A program made the position numbers and the translations under genes. Under the pieces are notes generated by a model that worked only from the letters and a program-made list of their open reading frames with translations, was not told the DNA's origin and did no database searches. A stretch of 64,000 nt of DNA from Escherichia phage BEU5: the sequence record OM632664.1; one strand, 5' to 3'. Below, in pieces: positions 514-5,705 of this stretch (the stretch's first letter is position 1; every line of letters starts with the position of its first letter).

Positions 514-2478
514 ATGCGTCACATTACATTCAACAATGAGGGTATCTACCCTATTGCTATCCTTACTACAACGTTACGTAAGGATGATATTGTCAAAGCA
601 TACATGGAACCCTGGGATGTAGATAAAGATTCAGTAATGATTCTTGAACTTCATACAGCCCCAGGGAAAAAGAAAACTCCTGCTAAAGAGATGCAGGAGT
701 TTATTACCCAAGAATTAGTGCCAGCATTCGAAGCAGCACAAACTCAGTATATCATCTGTGGTGATTCTGAATATTACAAACAGCTAACCAAACAAGGTAA
801 AGCTGATGCCAATATTGGCTATGTAATGGATTGTGCTTATGGGAACCAGAAAGTTATTTACGTTCCCAATTACAGACAAATCTTTTATGACCCGGATAAG
901 GTAAAGACTAAGATTGCTTTATCCATGCAGGCTCTGATTGATTATGTCTCTGGTTCTTATGTTGAGCCAGGAACTAAGATTATCCACTATGCTGATTATC
1001 CATTAACTCCAGAAGCTATATCTAAGTGGTTAGATAAGTTACTGGAGATGAATGTTCCATTAGCAGTAGATATAGAAACCTTCAGTCTGAAGCATTATGA
1101 CTGTGGTATAGGCACTATTACATTCTGCTGGAACAAGCATGAAGGGATAGCATTCCCTGTGGATTATGAACCAATTGAGGGGGCTACTGAAGCTCCTTAT
1201 GGTAGACAAGTTCACAACATGCTTGTTCGTTCTATGCTCAGAGACTTTTTTATTAAGTATCTGAACAGGCAGATGTATCACAATATTGCCTTTGACGTAT
1301 ATGCACTCATTTACCAGTTATTTATGACAGACCTTCTGGATACGGAAGGGTTGTTGCATGGCATGAGTATCATGCTAAGAAACTGGGATTGCACTAAGTT
1401 AATTACCTATCTGGCTACTAACTCTTGTGCGGGTAATAAGCTAAGTCTTAAAGACCAGGCTCAGGAATATGCTGGTAACTATGCTCAAGAAGAAATCAAT
1501 GACATTACCAGAATCCCATTAGCAGAGTTGTTGGAATACAACTTAGTGGATGGATTATGTACCTGGTATGTCTATGAAAAGCATTGGGATACTCTGGTTA
1601 ATGACCAACAGTTAGATGTTTATACAAACATCTTCAAACCTGCATGTGAAGATATTATTCAAATGCAGTTAACTGGTATGCCTATCAATATGAAGACAGT
1701 ATTGGAGGTAGAAGAGGCATTAACCCAAGACTATAACAATGCGTTAAAAACAATTGCTGACAGTAAAGTAATCAAAGATTTCACCCGTCTTCTTAATGAA
1801 GAATGGGTAGAAAAACAGAACCAGATTCTGAAGAAGAAACGAGTGACTTTAGCTGATGCTAAAGAACAGTTTAACCCAAACTCAGGTATTCAATTACAGA
1901 AGCTACTTTTTGAGTTTCTGGAGTTACCTGTACTTGGTTTGACTGCAAGTAAACTACCTGCTACTGGCAGTGGCATACTCAAGTCTTTGAAGAACCATAC
2001 CCAAGATACCAGTATTCTGGAAATTCTTGATGCTCTGATTGATTACAAAGCTGTAGATAAAATTCTGACAGCATTTATTCCAGCATTAAAAAATGCCAGA
2101 CAAGGACCAGATGGTTGGCATTATCTCTTTGGTAATCTGAACTTAGGTGGGACTGTATCAGGCCGCCTATCCAGTAGTGAACCAAACCTACAGAACCTAC
2201 CTTCTGGTTCCAGATATGCCAAGATGATTAAAAAATGCTTTGAGGCTCCTCCTGGATGGATATTCTGTGGGCTAGACTTTGCTTCTCTCGAAGACCGTAT
2301 ATCTGCTTTAACAACCAAAGACCCTAACAAGCTGAAGGTGTACATGGGTGTGACTGTTTATACAGTTACTATAGAAGGAGTTGACCATCATATCCGAGAT
2401 GATGATACAATCGTTTATGATGGTAAAACTTATACCGGTGAGGAGTTCTATGACGCTTTTACCCGTGGCCTTCTATGA
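514..2478 (+). CDS. DNA polymerase family A, N-terminal fragment (3'-5' exonuclease plus palm motif A)
   Basis: Exo motifs LAVDIETFS and YNLVDGL; motif-A-like GLDFASLEDR near the C-terminus. Start moved to ATG 514 (GAGG 6 nt upstream) to avoid overlap with the upstream ORF. Ends at TGA 2476-2478. Confidence 0.8.
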   Translation: MRHITFNNEGIYPIAILTTTLRKDDIVKAYMEPWDVDKDSVMILELHTAPGKKKTPAKEMQEFITQELVPAFEAAQTQYIICGDSEYYKQLTKQGKADANIGYVMDCAYGNQKVIYVPNYRQIFYDPDKVKTKIALSMQALIDYVSGSYVEPGTKIIHYADYPLTPEAISKWLDKLLEMNVPLAVDIETFSLKHYDCGIGTITFCWNKHEGIAFPVDYEPIEGATEAPYGRQVHNMLVRSMLRDFFIKYLNRQMYHNIAFDVYALIYQLFMTDLLDTEGLLHGMSIMLRNWDCTKLITYLATNSCAGNKLSLKDQAQEYAGNYAQEEINDITRIPLAELLEYNLVDGLCTWYVYEKHWDTLVNDQQLDVYTNIFKPACEDIIQMQLTGMPINMKTVLEVEEALTQDYNNALKTIADSKVIKDFTRLLNEEWVEKQNQILKKKRVTLADAKEQFNPNSGIQLQKLLFEFLELPVLGLTASKLPATGSGILKSLKNHTQDTSILEILDALIDYKAVDKILTAFIPALKNARQGPDGWHYLFGNLNLGGTVSGRLSSSEPNLQNLPSGSRYAKMIKKCFEAPPGWIFCGLDFASLEDRISALTTKDPNKLKVYMGVTVYTVTIEGVDHHIRDDDTIVYDGKTYTGEEFYDAFTRGLL

Positions 2479-2995
2479 ACAACGGTATAAGATTTCCGAT
2501 GAAGGTTTCATCTTAAATCTTGCAAACAATCAACCCCTAAAACCGACTCTCAATCCTAATGGATACCTTAAGGTTGGATTAGCTAATGGCGATGGTACAC
2601 ATCACCAAGAGCTACTTCATATTCTGGTAGCTAAACACTTCATCCCTAATCCTTATGGCTATGAACAGGTAAACCATAAAGACGGTAATAAACTGCATTG
2701 TCATAAGGATAATCTGGAATGGTGCTCTGCTACTCAGAATGTTGAACATGCACTTAAAACAAAGCTACGTCCTGGTTACATGTCTGCTGACGATAAAGAG
2801 AAGTATCTCTTTGAGGTGCTGGCAGGTAAGCAAGTTAAAGACATTGCTTTTGAAATAGGTAGGCGTCCTGAAACTTTGCATAAGATGCTCAGAACTACTG
2901 CTGACCGACTTGGTGTTCGAAATGAGTGGGATGATGTTATGAGGAGAAATAGAAAAGATGTTGCTTTACGACAGCTTGCCAAAATCAACTCATGA
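2450..2995 (+). CDS. HNH homing endonuclease (I-HmuI-like) inserted in the DNA polymerase gene
   Basis: HNH motif VNHKDGNKLHCHKDNLEWCSATQN; N-terminus YEQRYKISDEGFILN typical of HNH_3 enzymes. AGGAG at 2441-2445 precedes ATG 2450. Different frame from both polymerase fragments. Confidence 0.8.
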   Translation: MTLLPVAFYEQRYKISDEGFILNLANNQPLKPTLNPNGYLKVGLANGDGTHHQELLHILVAKHFIPNPYGYEQVNHKDGNKLHCHKDNLEWCSATQNVEHALKTKLRPGYMSADDKEKYLFEVLAGKQVKDIAFEIGRRPETLHKMLRTTADRLGVRNEWDDVMRRNRKDVALRQLAKINS

Positions 2996-3788
2996 CTTCA
3001 CTGGCAAGAAAATTGACAACGTAGTCAAAGCTGGGAGTTCATCAGGTTACGATGGGCATAGTCTTCGTGCATATGCTTACTTCGGTGAGATGATGCCTGA
3101 CATTGAAGATACGGTAGAGTCTGTTAATTCTATTCAGGAGAAGTACAAAGCATATCGTCAGGATTCTAAAGCACCTACCTTTGCTCTTACCTATCAGGGC
3201 ACATACATCACTTTGATGAAGAACTGTGGTTTCTCTGAACAGAAAGCTCGAATGGTTGAAGAACGTTATCACACACTTTATAAGGTAAGTGATGACTGGG
3301 TTCAGGCTAAACTAGACCAAGCTGCAAAAGATGGTTATGTAACCGTAGCATTTGGCCTGAGAGTCAGAACCCCCTTACTTCAACAAGTTATCCGTGGAAC
3401 CAGTAAAACTCCTTATGAAGCTGAAGCTGAAGGACGTACTGCTGGTAATGCATTAGGCCAAAGTTGGTGTCTTCTGAATAACCGTGCTGGTTCAGAGTTC
3501 ATGCGTATGGTGCGGAATAGTAAGCATCGTCTTGATATTCGTCCAAGTACCCATATCCATGATGCTCAGTATTTCCTTATCCGTGATGATATGGATGTTG
3601 TGATATATACCAATACTCATTTGGTGAAAGCAGTACAATGGCAAGACCATCCTGATATTGCTCATCCAGATGTTCATTTGGGTGGGGAACTCTCCTTATT
3701 CTACCCAACGTGGGCTAACGAGATTGAGATTCCAAACTACGCTACGCCCGAACAAGTCCATGAAGCAATCCAAAAGGCATTTAAATGA
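2958..3788 (+). CDS. DNA polymerase family A, C-terminal fragment (motifs B and C)
   Basis: Motif-B-like RQDSKAPTFALTYQG and motif-C-like HIHDAQYF. Own GAGGAG (2941-2946) and ATG 2958. Frame closed by TGA at 2940-2942. Confidence 0.75.
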   Translation: MLLYDSLPKSTHDFTGKKIDNVVKAGSSSGYDGHSLRAYAYFGEMMPDIEDTVESVNSIQEKYKAYRQDSKAPTFALTYQGTYITLMKNCGFSEQKARMVEERYHTLYKVSDDWVQAKLDQAAKDGYVTVAFGLRVRTPLLQQVIRGTSKTPYEAEAEGRTAGNALGQSWCLLNNRAGSEFMRMVRNSKHRLDIRPSTHIHDAQYFLIRDDMDVVIYTNTHLVKAVQWQDHPDIAHPDVHLGGELSLFYPTWANEIEIPNYATPEQVHEAIQKAFK

Positions 3789-4125: not shown

Positions 4126-4734
4126 ATGTCTGAAAAACTATCAGGTGGTTTTAATAACTACTATCTGGTTCAGGTAACCAACCCTCAACGTATGGAACAG
4201 CCTCCATATCAGGCCGAGTGTGAGGATATTATCCAAGCACTAAATATGACCTTTGATGAAGGGTGTCTGTTCAAGGCATTGTGGCGTAATGCTGCTGCTC
4301 GTTTAGGTAACGGTAAACCAGGTAACAATGCCGTTTATGATGCAGAGAAGATGGTTCATTATGCTAACCGTATTTTTATTAAAGAATCCGGTGGGCAGAA
4401 AAAAGAAGCAGAAGAACCAGTTTCTGAGGCTCTGAAGAAGGGTGAAGAGATTCATATGTCTCTGTCTGAATTATTCACCCTGTTAACTGGTGAAGCAGCA
4501 GAAGGTGAAGTAATGAGCCTTGCTGGTTGGCATACTCACGTACCAAACCGTTTGGGTGTTATGCCTATTGCTGTTGCAATGAGCAAAGCAGAACAAATTG
4601 ATGTAGTACGTGCCGATGGAACGACTATTACTCATGTATTTCCTCATGAGATTGACTGGTCTGATAAGATTGCCCCCTTTGCTCGAATCACTGCATGGCG
4701 TTTCAGTAACCCATCTAAGGTCGCTTCTAAATGA
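4126..4734 (+). CDS. hypothetical protein
   Basis: 202-aa ORF, tightly packed in operon. Confidence 0.55.
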   Translation: MSEKLSGGFNNYYLVQVTNPQRMEQPPYQAECEDIIQALNMTFDEGCLFKALWRNAAARLGNGKPGNNAVYDAEKMVHYANRIFIKESGGQKKEAEEPVSEALKKGEEIHMSLSELFTLLTGEAAEGEVMSLAGWHTHVPNRLGVMPIAVAMSKAEQIDVVRADGTTITHVFPHEIDWSDKIAPFARITAWRFSNPSKVASK

Positions 4735-5705
4735 AAATCACGAACAATCATGACGTGTCCTTGCCATTAGCTGTCTGGCTTTTGCATGACGAGTATGATT
4801 ACGTGAAGGATAAAAAGTATCTTTCTGTGACTACCTTGCTTAAGCCAATTAAGCACATTGTCATGAAGCATCGTGTAGACCTTTCTGTAGAAAGTATGGA
4901 CATCATGGATTTGGTGTCCACTTCTATGGGTACGGGCTTACATGATTCTATTGAGAAGGCATGGCATAACGGACACCACAATGCATTACGCAAGTTAGGG
5001 TATCCTGAGCGTGTCGTTCAGAATGTTGTCATCAATCCTACCCCTGAGCAGATTGCATCAAATCCAAACTTAATTCCTGTATGGATAGAACAACGAGCAA
5101 CTAAAAAGATTGCTGGTTGGACTATTGGGGGCAAGTTCGACATCGTTACTGAAGGTCTTCTTCAGGATGTAAAATCCACCTCCACTTACACATGGGTAAA
5201 GGGTGGACGTGATGAAGAACATAAACTTCAGGGGTCAATGTATCGTTGGTTACATGACGACAAGATTACCGAAGATGTGATTCGTATTAACTACATCTTC
5301 ACTGACTGGATGAAAGCACTAGCTACATCTCAAGAAAACTACCCAAAGCACCGTGTGCTGCATAAAGACATTCCATTGATGTCTTATGAAGCGACTGAAG
5401 AATGGATTAAAGCCAAGCTGGCTCTCATTGATAAGTACTGGGATGCTCCTGAAAACGAGATTCCAGAATGTACTGATGAAGAGTTATGGCGTTCTGACCC
5501 AGTGTTTAAATACTTTGCTGACCCAGAGAAGGCAAAGCAACCTGGTGCTCGTTCTACCAAAAACTTCCCTACTCTCTTTGAGGCTCGGAAGTTCATGGCA
5601 GAGAAAGGCAAAGGCACTATTCTTCATGTTCCTGGTGAACCTAAACGATGCAACTATTGCTCAATTTTTAACATCTGCGAACAAAGAAAGAGATATTTCC
5701 CATGA
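4731..5705 (+). CDS. PD-(D/E)xK nuclease, Cas4/RecB-like, with C-terminal Cys cluster
   Basis: GGKFDIVTEGLLQDVKSTSTY (D...QxK...Y nuclease motifs) and Cys pattern C-x36-CNYCSIFNIC resembling a Cas4-type Fe-S site. Confidence 0.5.
   Translation: MKITNNHDVSLPLAVWLLHDEYDYVKDKKYLSVTTLLKPIKHIVMKHRVDLSVESMDIMDLVSTSMGTGLHDSIEKAWHNGHHNALRKLGYPERVVQNVVINPTPEQIASNPNLIPVWIEQRATKKIAGWTIGGKFDIVTEGLLQDVKSTSTYTWVKGGRDEEHKLQGSMYRWLHDDKITEDVIRINYIFTDWMKALATSQENYPKHRVLHKDIPLMSYEATEEWIKAKLALIDKYWDAPENEIPECTDEELWRSDPVFKYFADPEKAKQPGARSTKNFPTLFEARKFMAEKGKGTILHVPGEPKRCNYCSIFNICEQRKRYFP

What the first reader, a model, noticed from the sequence alone, without database searches (positions are those of the whole stretch)
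514..3788. Family-A DNA polymerase gene interrupted by an HNH endonuclease ORF between motif A and motif B
Exo motifs and motif A are in ORF 514-2478 and motifs B and C in ORF 2958-3788, in a different frame. An I-HmuI-like HNH ORF (2450-2995) fills the gap, with its own AGGAG RBS. Each polymerase half also has its own stop or RBS/ATG. Two hypotheses: (a) a homing-endonuclease-containing group I intron, as in the SPO1 polymerase/I-HmuI case, which splicing would repair; (b) a free-standing HNH insertion giving a split polymerase made as two polypeptides. The frame stop at 2940-2942, just before the C-fragment ATG, leaves little room for a 3' intron core, which favours (b) but does not exclude (a).
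Basis: partly seen in the sequence, partly recalled or inferred. Interest (0 to 1): 0.7.

Follow-up and report, generated by a model that had tools for sequence, protein, structure and literature searches.

The report
Endonuclease-split phage N4 DNA polymerase
A selfish HNH endonuclease gene has cut this N4-type phage's DNA polymerase gene into two separately translated halves; the cassette also supplies conserved peptide tails, and there is no sign of the intron that published annotations of related phages assume.

Summary
The window is an N4-type coliphage, 100% identical to phages BEU13/42/44/51. Compared with the uninterrupted phage N4 polymerase (gp39), it carries a 695-nt cassette (2344-3038) between codons Y and TD of KVY|TD|GYDGH. 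The polymerase is therefore split into an N-fragment (514-2478) and a C-fragment (2958-3788), with an I-HmuI-like NUMOD4/HNH gene (2450-2995) overlapping both.

It is not a group I intron. Rfam finds nothing in the window, in four other lineages, or in an HNH-deleted relative, yet it detects a real intron at another site in PhAPEC7. The only sequence outside the HNH ORF encodes two tails: 44 aa ending the N-fragment and about 27 aa starting the C-fragment. The N-tail shows strong codon periodicity (p = 3e-5). The stop codon and ATG are conserved in every lineage examined, and an AGGAG ribosome-binding site in all five HNH-bearing lineages.

Best reading: a free-standing homing endonuclease and a two-polypeptide polymerase docked by element-borne tails, as in Aeh1 NrdA/mobE.

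The parts
514..2343 (+). Native part of the polymerase N-fragment (exonuclease, thumb, palm with motif A), ending ...DFASLEDRISALTTKDPNKLKVY
   Evidence: About 98% identical to N4 gp39 up to 2343. Pfam DNA_pol_A profile positions 12-180. Identity to N4 falls to 83-93% in the last ~80 nt, and SP5M versus unsplit KKP3715 shows the same dip; this is read as a co-conversion tract.
2344..2478 (+). N-tail: 44 codons (MGVTVYTVTIEGVDHHIRDDDTIVYDGKTYTGEEFYDAFTRGLL) plus a TGA stop. It is fused in frame to the N-fragment, acidic (pI 4.3), and absent from N4.
   Evidence: In 7 lineages the variable columns by codon position are 17/35, 13/35 and 31/35 (chi-square p 2.8e-5), with minimum substitutions 19/19/52. 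Synonymous:non-synonymous counts are 13:9 in frame versus 2:21 out of frame. A profile search found 57 50%-identity cluster representatives at E<=1e-10, about 50 of which cover the tail; nearly all of those are N-fragments or shorter ORFs that end just after it.
2440..2445 (+). Shine-Dalgarno-like GAGGAG for the HNH gene, 4 nt before its ATG and inside the N-tail codons G-E-E
   Evidence: Read from the sequence. The ATG at 2450 is conserved in Pollock, Pylas and L009, and shifted by one codon in SP5M.
2450..2995 (+). Free-standing HNH homing endonuclease gene (181 aa; NUMOD4 + HNH_3, with a weak helix-turn-helix-like C-terminus). It overlaps the N-fragment end by 29 nt and the C-fragment start by 38 nt.
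   Evidence: Pfam. I-HmuI 1U3E at E 8.7e-10 over residues 6-103, and a weak LuxR-type HTH match over 114-160. Purifying selection in its own frame: 60 synonymous versus 47 non-synonymous codons between the window and Pylas.
2943..2947 (+). AGGAG ribosome-binding site for the C-fragment, 10 nt before the ATG at 2958 and embedded in the HNH coding sequence
   Evidence: AGGAG is kept in the window, Pollock, SP5M, Pylas and L009, although the HNH residues it encodes differ (MRR in the window versus MKE in Pylas).
2958..3038 (+). C-tail: the ATG plus about 26 more codons (MLLYDSLPKSTHDFTGKKIDNVVKAGS). It is fused in frame to the C-fragment and is neutral to basic (pI 8.2 here, up to 11.2 in relatives).
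   Evidence: Homologous C-tails (M.QF.TL.KST.EIP.GA..SIK.VGN|TDGYDGH) head 64 of the top 120 C-fragment relatives; 63 of the 64 start with Met. The tail aligns to the C-terminal hairpin of the contiguous domain in P0179 and P0168.
3039..3788 (+). Native part of the polymerase C-fragment (fingers with motif B, RQDSKAPTFALTYQG; palm with motif C, HIHDAQ). Codons SS at 3039-3044 stand in for TD of N4.
   Evidence: 98-100% identical to N4 from 3045 onward. Pfam DNA_pol_A profile positions 200-303.
2344..3038 (+). The mobile cassette as a whole (695 nt): N-tail, HNH, C-tail
   Evidence: It is the single gap in the alignment to N4 and KKP3715. It is 88-93% identical to Pollock, where the surrounding polymerase is only about 55% identical, which indicates horizontal transfer of the cassette.

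Best explanation
A free-standing I-HmuI-type HNH homing endonuclease cassette sits inside the N4-type family A DNA polymerase gene, between helix-M-equivalent KVY and TDGYDGH at the palm/fingers junction. The cassette brings a 44-codon tail plus a stop codon for the upstream half. It also brings its own endonuclease gene, and a ribosome-binding site, ATG and ~27-codon tail for the downstream half. The three ORFs are read from one transcript in three frames with short overlaps. The polymerase is made as two polypeptides, of 654 aa (exonuclease, thumb, motif A) and 276 aa (motifs B and C), which reassemble non-covalently. The acidic N-tail and basic C-tail are the two halves of one small beta-rich domain and most likely dock or stabilise the two fragments. 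The endonuclease presumably nicks or cuts cassette-free alleles such as N4's during co-infection, and spreads the cassette by recombinational repair with co-conversion of neighbouring polymerase sequence. SHOWN here: the anatomy, the exact insertion point, the absence of a detectable intron, protein-level selection on the N-tail, conservation of the stop codon and start codon in every lineage examined (and of the AGGAG site in the HNH-bearing ones), horizontal transfer, persistence of the split after HNH loss, and contiguity of the tails in some unsplit polymerases. INFERRED: fragment assembly, the docking role of the tails, and endonuclease target and activity.
For: Insertion point and uninterrupted allele.
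No group I intron: at E<=10 in the window and in HNH-deleted L016 and contiguous L013; at E<=1 in SP5M and Pollock and in L009. The same model scores the different PhAPEC7 intron at E 9e-7.
RNAalifold over five lineages gives an unfavourable covariation term, +13.96.
Only about 155 nt lie outside the HNH ORF, and they are codons: N-tail periodicity p 2.8e-5, synonymous excess only in frame.
The TGA stop and the ATG are conserved in every lineage examined; AGGAG before the ATG is conserved in the five HNH-bearing lineages even where the overlapping HNH residues change.
L016/L017: the N-fragment and C-fragment keep their tails, stop and ATG but are separated by 36 nt, and only about 10 + 15 HNH codons remain.
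P0179 (947 aa, 63-kb N4-like contig) and P0168 carry N-tail + linker + C-tail in frame, and the split point falls in the linker.
AlphaFold2 models this region at pLDDT 74-85 in the whole protein and about 90 as an isolated domain, with 6 strands and 1 helix.
Tail charges: N -5 to -6, C +0.5 to +4.6.
Cassette versus flanks identity to Pollock is 88-93% versus about 55%, and identity dips next to the insert against N4 and KKP3715.
No promoter-like or terminator-like site lies inside the cassette.
Viable isolates carry the cassette: BEU13, VEc25, AlfredRasser, PMBT57 and others.
Precedent for element-derived tails that are essential for a split enzyme: Crona et al. 2010, PMC3045599.
Against: There is no transcript or protein data, so splicing has not been excluded experimentally. 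Rfam's group I model is imperfect: the PhAPEC7 control scored only 38 bits, below the gathering score of 50. Several U...G splice-site pairs that would restore the frame do exist, for example 2351/3046. The part of the C-tail outside the HNH overlap is weakly constrained (variable columns 10/16, 9/16, 15/17). Contact between N-tail and C-tail therefore rests on their being one confidently predicted domain in the contiguous homologues. L016 lacks an obvious AGGAG before its C-fragment ATG.
Confidence: 0.8

Rival explanations
1. The insertion is a mobile group I intron carrying the HNH ORF, as in the SPO1 polymerase/I-HmuI case and as stated for Pollock and Pylas. RNA splicing would restore one continuous polymerase mRNA.
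For: The Pollock genome announcement calls the HNH 'intron-encoded' (PMC4319500), and the Pylas annotation joins the two halves as exons. A genuine group I intron with an HNH ORF does exist in the same gene of PhAPEC7 at another site. The HNH-less remnant (tails + spacer, about 250 nt) has the size of an ORF-less group I intron. Frame-restoring U...G boundary pairs can be found in the sequence.
Against: No Intron_gpI match at E<=10 in the window or in the HNH-less L016, nor at E<=1 in three further cassette-bearing lineages (SP5M, Pollock, L009), while the control scores. There is no covariation support. The would-be intron 5' arm evolves with 3-nt periodicity and an excess of synonymous changes. 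The same sequence is an in-frame translated domain in P0179 and P0168. Stop codon and ATG are conserved throughout, and AGGAG in the HNH-bearing lineages. The literature statements cite no experiment.
Confidence: 0.07
2. The tails are an active split intein. The two translated halves would be joined covalently by protein trans-splicing, a 'fractured gene' in the sense of Dassa et al. 2009.
Confidence: 0.04
3. The polymerase gene is simply inactivated by the insertion, and the phage replicates with another polymerase.
For: None found. It is considered only because a split active site is unusual.
Against: Both halves stay intact and under purifying selection over lineages about 45% diverged in nucleotide sequence (window versus Pollock polymerase flanks ~55% identical). 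64 of the 120 closest C-fragment clusters have this split. The split persists after HNH loss with ORFs intact. Many viable isolates carry it. N4 gp39 is the phage replicase (established knowledge).
Confidence: 0.02

Closest known systems
Aeromonas phage Aeh1 nrdA-a / mobE / nrdA-b (Friedrich et al. 2007; Crona et al. 2010, PMC3045599)
   Same: A free-standing HNH homing endonuclease gene splits an essential DNA-metabolism gene into two independently translated genes within one operon. Unique C- and N-terminal tails that came in with the element sit at the break, have opposite charge, and in Aeh1 are essential for activity. There is no RNA or protein splicing.
   Different: The host gene here is a family A DNA polymerase, split between motifs A and B. 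Charge polarity is reversed (N-tail acidic). The tails are the halves of a conserved domain that is confidently predicted to fold, are found in many lineages and at two sites, and are contiguous in some unsplit genes. No function has been tested here.
Fractured genes: split intein + free-standing endonuclease (Dassa et al. 2009, PMC2677866)
   Same: The gene order is the same (N-part with tail, endonuclease, tail with C-part), with overlapping frames and control elements brought in by the element. HEG-less derivatives also exist (their 'step III', equivalent to L016 here). The fold resemblance to Hint is weak.
   Different: The tails are about half the size of an intein, lack the catalytic Cys/Ser1 and a conserved terminal Asn, and match no intein profile. 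The endonuclease is HNH rather than GIY-YIG or Vsr-like.
SPO1/SP82 DNA polymerase group I introns encoding I-HmuI/I-HmuII, and the T7-like PhiI/W31 polymerase intron (recalled from memory, not read here)
   Same: A family A phage polymerase is interrupted near conserved motifs by an I-HmuI-family HNH gene. The endonuclease here is a detectable I-HmuI homologue.
   Different: Those ORFs lie inside self-splicing ribozymes. No ribozyme is detectable here, and the flanking insert sequence is protein-coding.
Group I intron in the PhAPEC5/PhAPEC7 (Gamaleyavirus) polymerase gene
   Same: Same gene and same phage family, with an HNH ORF inside.
   Different: It lies about 100 nt upstream (before PSGSKYAK), carries an unrelated HNH, and is recognised by Rfam Intron_gpI. 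It served as the positive control.
Split gp43 PolB of some T4-like phages and T4 topoisomerase gp39/gp60 with mobA (as cited)
   Same: Replication enzymes of phages made from two genes separated by a homing endonuclease gene. Tail-like extensions have been noted for gp39/gp60.

Membership tests
Family A DNA polymerase (phage N4 gp39 type), split | Colinear Pol A motifs across the two ORFs and orthology to an uninterrupted gp39 | tested here: met
   Pfam DNA_pol_A profile positions 12-180 and 200-303 in the two ORFs. About 98% nucleotide identity to N4 gp39 on both sides of a single 695-nt gap.
I-HmuI-like HNH homing endonuclease (NUMOD4 + HNH_3) | NUMOD4 and HNH domains, with homology to I-HmuI | tested here: met
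   Pfam matches above the curated cut-offs: HNH_3 26.1 bits versus 24.8, NUMOD4 23.8 versus 23.4. 1U3E at E 8.7e-10, with the HKDGNK...NL.W...N motif aligned.
I-HmuI-like HNH homing endonuclease (NUMOD4 + HNH_3) | Site-specific nicking or cleavage of the cassette-free allele, and homing | not testable with these tools
   Only indirect signs: presence/absence polymorphism within one species (N4 versus VEc25/BEU13), a cassette far more similar than its flanks between genera, and identity dips next to the insert.
Group I intron with nested HEG | Conserved ribozyme core (P3-P9, G-binding site) detectable by covariance model | tested here: not met
   No RF00028 match at E<=10 in the window, L016 (HNH-less) or L013, nor at E<=1 in SP5M, Pollock or L009. 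The PhAPEC7 control scores E 9e-7.
Group I intron with nested HEG | Non-ORF intron arms evolve as structured RNA (covariation, no codon periodicity) | tested here: not met
   Covariation term +13.96. The 5' arm shows codon periodicity at p 2.8e-5.
Group I intron with nested HEG | 5' exon ends in U, the intron ends in G, and excision restores the frame | tested here: inconclusive
   Several such pairs exist by inspection, for example exon end 2351 with intron end 3046 giving KVYMGVYDGH. Pairs like these arise by chance, so they do not discriminate.
Group I intron with nested HEG | Splicing in vivo or in vitro | not testable with these tools
   Needs RT-PCR or a self-splicing assay.
Gene fragmented by a free-standing HEG with element-derived tails (Aeh1 nrdA/mobE type) | An endonuclease ORF with its own start lies between two colinear halves, and each half has its own stop or its own ribosome-binding site and ATG | tested here: met
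   Stop and ATG are conserved in all lineages aligned; AGGAG before the C-fragment ATG is conserved in the five HNH-bearing lineages.
Gene fragmented by a free-standing HEG with element-derived tails (Aeh1 nrdA/mobE type) | Junction tails are absent from uninterrupted orthologues and are inherited with the element | tested here: met
   The tails are absent from N4, KKP3715 and most unsplit polymerases. By tblastn the N-tail occurs only in cassette-bearing phage records. A homologous tail + NUMOD4 ORF occurs at a second site. Caveat: two unsplit polymerases carry the tails as one in-frame domain.
Gene fragmented by a free-standing HEG with element-derived tails (Aeh1 nrdA/mobE type) | Fragments assemble into an active enzyme, and the tails are required | not testable with these tools
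   Inferred from viability of isolates, purifying selection and persistence after HNH loss.
Split intein / fractured gene | Hint fold of the joined tails | tested here: inconclusive
   [not shown]
Split intein / fractured gene | Catalytic residues: Cys/Ser/Thr at position 1, terminal Asn, +1 nucleophile | tested here: not met
   The window has Met1 and terminal Ser. In the family, position 1 is not conserved and Asn is present in 31/64. Only the +1 Thr/Ser is conserved, and it is the native polymerase residue.

The most novel reading that the evidence does not exclude
The two tails are the halves of a miniaturised, catalytically dead Hint-like (intein-derived) domain. It no longer splices but still snaps together, acidic N half with basic C half, so it acts as a portable non-covalent docking clamp. 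An HNH homing endonuclease would carry this clamp from site to site and from phage to phage, making its own insertion into an essential polymerase harmless. This would be the degenerate-intein origin of 'tails' that Crona et al. only speculated about. It would also be a natural split-domain tag usable for protein engineering.
Probability: 0.3. Interest if true: 0.75.

Novelty: new member of a known kind. Interest (0 to 1): 0.55.

Why it matters
Published descriptions of this arrangement call it an intron: the Pollock announcement, and the Pylas annotation, which joins the two halves as exons. That leads to wrong joined-CDS annotations and wrong polymerase proteins in databases. The data here indicate a second, much more widespread case of the Aeh1 NrdA solution, in which a selfish endonuclease splits an essential enzyme and supplies the peptides that hold the pieces together.

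This case differs in three ways. The split runs through a DNA polymerase active site, with motif A on one chain and motifs B and C on the other. The tails are a conserved, foldable, transferable module. And nature provides a full series of states: unsplit without the domain (N4), unsplit with the domain (P0179), split with the endonuclease (this window), and split after endonuclease loss (L016).

That series makes the evolution of fragmented genes, and possibly of split inteins, directly testable in an easy E. coli phage system. It also offers a candidate small split-domain pair for protein engineering.

Tried and rejected
Contiguous natural homologues were used instead.
2. The first large MSA (A3) misplaced the tails. 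A tails-only MAFFT run (A5) aligned C-tails onto N-tails and suggested an N-tail/C-tail duplication (YDGK versus YDGH). I reject this as an alignment artefact: about 4/33 identities, and it vanished once exon anchors were added (A6).
3. Pfam on the tails found nothing credible.
5. Foldseek against PDB and BFVD gave no significant hit. The afdb_sample library was unavailable.
6. The word-indexed protein search with the N-tail returned only six short ORFs and missed the known 654-aa proteins. The exhaustive HMMER search was needed.
7. An 11-bp complementarity between 2385-2395 (CCATCATATCC) and 3045-3055 (GGTTACGATGG) appears in the RNAalifold consensus. It lies in conserved coding sequence with no compensatory changes (two of its 11 pairs are broken in two sequences), and a match of this length is expected by chance in 755 nt, so it is not taken as evidence.
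8. Translational bypass or frameshifting across 695 nt that contain an intact conserved ORF was rejected as implausible.
9. The sigma-70 promoter and terminator scan found nothing inside the cassette. N4 middle genes use the phage RNA polymerase anyway.
Full report
**1. What is in the window**

- 514-2478, 654 aa from the ATG that corresponds to the N4 gp39 start.
- 2450-2995, 181 aa.
- 2958-3788, 276 aa.

Pfam places DNA_pol_A profile positions 12-180 in the first ORF (E 2.7e-25) and positions 200-303 in the third (E 9.6e-9). The middle ORF matches NUMOD4 plus HNH_3, both above the curated cut-offs. It is a detectable homologue of I-HmuI (PDB 1U3E, E 8.7e-10) and has a weak helix-turn-helix-like C-terminal part.

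The ribosome-binding sites are visible in the sequence: GAGGAG at 2440-2445 and AGGAG at 2943-2947. So are the overlaps, of 29 nt between the N-fragment and the HNH gene and 38 nt between the HNH gene and the C-fragment. No promoter-like or terminator-like site lies inside.

**2. Where the window comes from and the exact insertion point**

Megablast shows the window is an Enquatrovirus. It is 100% identical to phages BEU13, BEU42, BEU44 and BEU51, and 98-99% identical to VEc25, SPSP, AlfredRasser, AL25, Jura and PMBT57. All of these carry the same three ORFs.

Phage N4 itself, 3HA13 and OLB145 are about 98% identical but lack about 695 nt. N4's gp39 DNAP is one 859-aa ORF.

The pairwise alignment has a single gap. 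N4 reads GTG TAT | ACC GAT | GGT TAC (KVY-TD-GYDGH). The window reads GTG TAC | ATG GGT ... TCA TCA | GGT TAC. Taking SS (3039-3044) as the counterpart of TD, the cassette is 2344-3038, which is 695 nt and not a multiple of three.

The site aligns with the loop just before the conserved (G)xD(I)H helix of Pol I enzymes. That places it after motif A and before motif B, at the palm-to-fingers transition (helix naming rests on established Pol I structures).

**3. Is it an intron?**

Rfam with permissive thresholds finds no group I (or any credible) family in 2100-3400. It also finds none in the homologous loci of SP5M and Pollock or in a more distant metagenomic copy, L009.

The test has a positive control. 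PhAPEC7, another N4-like phage, has a different insertion about 100 nt upstream, before PSGSKYAK. Its depositors annotate it as an intron, and Rfam scores it as Intron_gpI at E 9e-7.

One objection is that the large ORF could hide a ribozyme from the covariance model. Relatives L016/L017 answer this. There the HNH gene has been deleted, leaving about 10 first and 15 last codons, so that only about 250 nt separate the native polymerase parts. These give no hit at E<=10 either.

RNAalifold over five lineages gives an unfavourable covariation term of +13.96 kcal/mol.

Most tellingly, the only insert sequence outside the HNH ORF (2344-2449 and 2996-3038) evolves as codons:
- In seven lineages the N-tail has variable columns of 17/35, 13/35 and 31/35 at codon positions 1, 2 and 3 (chi-square p 2.8e-5), with minimum substitutions of 19, 19 and 52.
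- Synonymous changes outnumber replacements only in the polymerase frame: 13:9 for the window versus Pylas, against 2:21 and 3:16 in the other frames.
- The TGA ending the N-fragment and the ATG of the C-fragment are kept in every lineage examined. An AGGAG 9-11 nt upstream of that ATG is kept in the window, Pollock, SP5M, Pylas and L009 (not in HNH-less L016), although the HNH residues encoded by those bases differ.

Frame-restoring U...G boundary pairs can be found by eye. They are expected by chance and carry no weight.

I conclude that an intron is unlikely (about 7%). The statements 'intron-encoded HNH' for Pollock (PMC4319500) and the joined-exon annotation of Pylas are unsupported assumptions.

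**4. The tails are a conserved, mobile module**

The 44-aa N-tail is MGVTVYTVTIEGVDHHIRDDDTIVYDGKTYTGEEFYDAFTRGLL. By tblastn against 50,697 phage records it occurs only in the 17 cassette-bearing ones: Enquatrovirus, the Gamaleyavirus phages SP5M and PD205, Pollock, and Klebsiella phage Pylas.

An exhaustive HMMER search of 1.84 billion cluster representatives, using a tail profile, finds 57 representatives at E<=1e-10. About 50 of them cover the tail. Nearly all of these are N-fragments of 620-690 aa, or shorter ORFs, that end 0-8 residues after the tail. The core HHIRDD.TI.(Y/F)DGK.YTGEEFY is nearly invariant.

Searching with the C-fragment gave 64 proteins of 269-288 aa among the 120 best 90%-identity clusters. 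These begin with a homologous C-tail, M.QF.TL.(K/R)ST.EIP.GA..SIK.VG(N)-TDGYDGH, and 63 of the 64 start with Met. This split is therefore the commonest state of the gene among the closest metagenomic relatives, not a rare accident.

Four further observations define the module.
- **(a) Horizontal transfer.** The cassette is 88-93% identical between the window and Pollock, whereas the surrounding polymerase is about 55% identical. Next to the insert, identity to the cassette-free alleles drops: window versus N4 to 83-93% over the last ~80 nt, and SP5M versus KKP3715 from 99% to 72-87%. This is as expected for co-conversion.
- **(b) Persistence without the endonuclease.** In L016/L017 the HNH is deleted, yet the N-fragment plus tail plus stop, and the ATG plus tail plus C-fragment, remain intact 36 nt apart.
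- **(c) A second site.** About 25 codons downstream, after ...YF..MPDI, another set of N-fragments ends in a recognisably related tail (..CYSAKVGGTEIRF..DTIEHNGKTFTGREFYEAF*). It is followed by a NUMOD4-type ORF with the same 29-nt overlap. The matching C-fragments of 244-253 aa start with a related ..KPGAK(I/V)EEI.. tail.
- **(d) A contiguous version.** Two unsplit polymerases carry N-tail, a ~20-aa linker and C-tail as one in-frame insertion of about 80 aa at exactly this site. They are P0179 (947 aa, on a 63-kb contig with N4-like gene order, seen on three contigs) and P0168. The endonuclease insertion point of the split genes maps to the linker.

**5. Structure prediction**

AlphaFold2 on P0179 with an 81-row alignment gives mean pLDDT 93. 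The insertion has four strands and a helix (pLDDT 82-85, the N-tail equivalent), a less certain linker (58-71), and a beta-hairpin (74-81, the C-tail equivalent).

Modelled alone, with a correctly anchored alignment of 16 N-tails and 17 C-tails, the domain reaches pLDDT of about 90 over residues 21-90 and pTM 0.67. I could not inspect coordinates. That the two tails pack together is inferred from their forming one confidently predicted compact unit.

The N-tails are acidic (pI 4.2-4.6, net -5 to -6). The C-tails are neutral to basic (pI 8.2-11.2).

**6. What fold, and is it an intein relic?**

Against this:
- Foldseek finds nothing significant in the PDB or BFVD.
- No tail sequence touches a Pfam Hint or intein model.
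- hhalign against five inteins is non-significant.
- The 71 residues are about half a minimal intein.
- The catalytic positions are not conserved. The first tail residue is T/M/V/L/Q/I/S/A/E, and is Met in the window. The last is Asn in only 31 of 64, and is Ser in the window.

Canonical protein splicing is therefore excluded for this window and is not the conserved function. A degenerate, non-splicing Hint origin remains an attractive but unproven reading (about 30%). Crona et al. raised the same idea for the Aeh1 tails.

**7. Mechanism proposed**

Shown:
- The anatomy of the cassette.
- Independent translation signals for each half.
- Protein-level constraint on the N-tail.
- Mobility of the cassette.

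Inferred:
- The two polypeptides assemble into an active polymerase whose catalytic carboxylates and fingers lie on different chains.
- The tails, as two halves of one small domain with complementary charge, dock or stabilise the junction.
- The HNH enzyme targets the intact KVYTDGYDGH-coding sequence of cassette-free phages in mixed infection and spreads the cassette by recombinational repair.
- The short spacing of the HNH ribosome-binding site, and its occlusion by ribosomes finishing the N-fragment, probably keep endonuclease expression low.

**8. Comparison with known systems and novelty**

The closest experimentally characterised system is Aeh1 nrdA-a/mobE/nrdA-b, where element-derived, oppositely charged tails are essential (PMC3045599). 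The gene order also mirrors the 'fractured genes' of Dassa et al. (PMC2677866), including HEG-less derivatives.

The feature itself is already annotated in GenBank as two 'DNA polymerase' CDSs around an 'HNH homing endonuclease'. I found no paper in the searchable library that analyses it beyond calling it an intron. I therefore rate it a new member of a known kind.

The added value is threefold:
- It corrects the intron assumption.
- The tails are a conserved, foldable, site-hopping module.
- A complete natural series of states is available in an easy E. coli phage system.

Noticed in passing
L006 (PhAPEC7, KF562340) about 1990-2680; HNH ORF at 2056-2586: The same polymerase gene in PhAPEC5/PhAPEC7 carries a different insertion about 100 nt upstream, before PSGSKYAK. 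It has an unrelated HNH ORF, and Rfam scores the insertion as a group I intron (E 9e-7, 38 bits). N4-like polymerase genes therefore host both true introns and free-standing cassettes.
   Followed up: partly
L009 1758-6546 (also L010, L011; Logan metagenome assemblies): In this N4-like metagenomic phage the polymerase is in at least five pieces: 533 aa; a 193-aa unknown ORF; 66 aa; an HNH with about 100-nt and 200-nt non-coding flanks; a 79-aa ORF holding only motif A plus the N-tail; the orthologous HNH; 78 aa; and the remainder. Rfam finds no intron anywhere in it.
   Followed up: partly
L009 5953-5970: Inside motif B the reading frame breaks: ...TTT GCT CTT ACG TAA CA TAT CAA GGT... (FALT* then YQG in the -1 frame). 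Either a -1 frameshift (giving FALTVTYQG) or a 5-nt hop from ACG to ACA over the stop (giving the native FALTYQG) would restore the motif. The same gene calls occur in three assemblies, so this may be a recoding site rather than an error.
   Followed up: no
L016 4840-5110 (also L017): An HNH-deleted derivative of the cassette. The N-tail, stop, 36-nt spacer and ATG + C-tail are kept, and the remnant still encodes the first ~10 (YEGRYPINE) and last ~15 (NRQYDALRNLRKIS) HNH codons. There is no AGGAG before the C-fragment ATG here, so its initiation mechanism is unclear.
   Followed up: partly
P0164, P0176, P0183, P0184, P0187, P0189, P0203, P0257, P0273; L015 2886-3050; C-fragments P0078, P0096, P0101; P0061: A second split site about 25 codons downstream (after MPDI) uses a homologous N-tail, often starting with a conserved Cys (CY.AKVG...), a NUMOD4-type ORF with the same 29-nt overlap, and a related C-tail. 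P0061 combines a site-1 C-tail with an in-frame site-2 mini-domain.
   Followed up: partly
L013 4001-6844 (P0179) and P0168: Unsplit 947-aa N4-like polymerases carry the tail module as one in-frame domain of about 80 aa. The HH of the HHIRDD motif is lost, but RDD.T(I/V) and the terminal GN(S/T) are kept. Whether this state is ancestral or results from endonuclease loss is open.
   Followed up: partly
window 2385-2395 and 3045-3055: CCATCATATCC (codons HHI of the N-tail) is almost the reverse complement of GGTTACGATGG (codons GYDG at the 3' junction), and the pairing is largely kept in all five lineages. Both sites are conserved coding sequence and no compensatory change is seen, so it is uninformative, but it would bring the two cassette ends together in RNA or single-stranded DNA.
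   Followed up: no
L008 (Pylas) 4276-4794: Pylas has a further HNH gene between the gp40-like gene and thymidylate synthase, also annotated as 'intron'. This suggests several free-standing endonucleases in the replication module.
   Followed up: no
[not shown]
   Followed up: no
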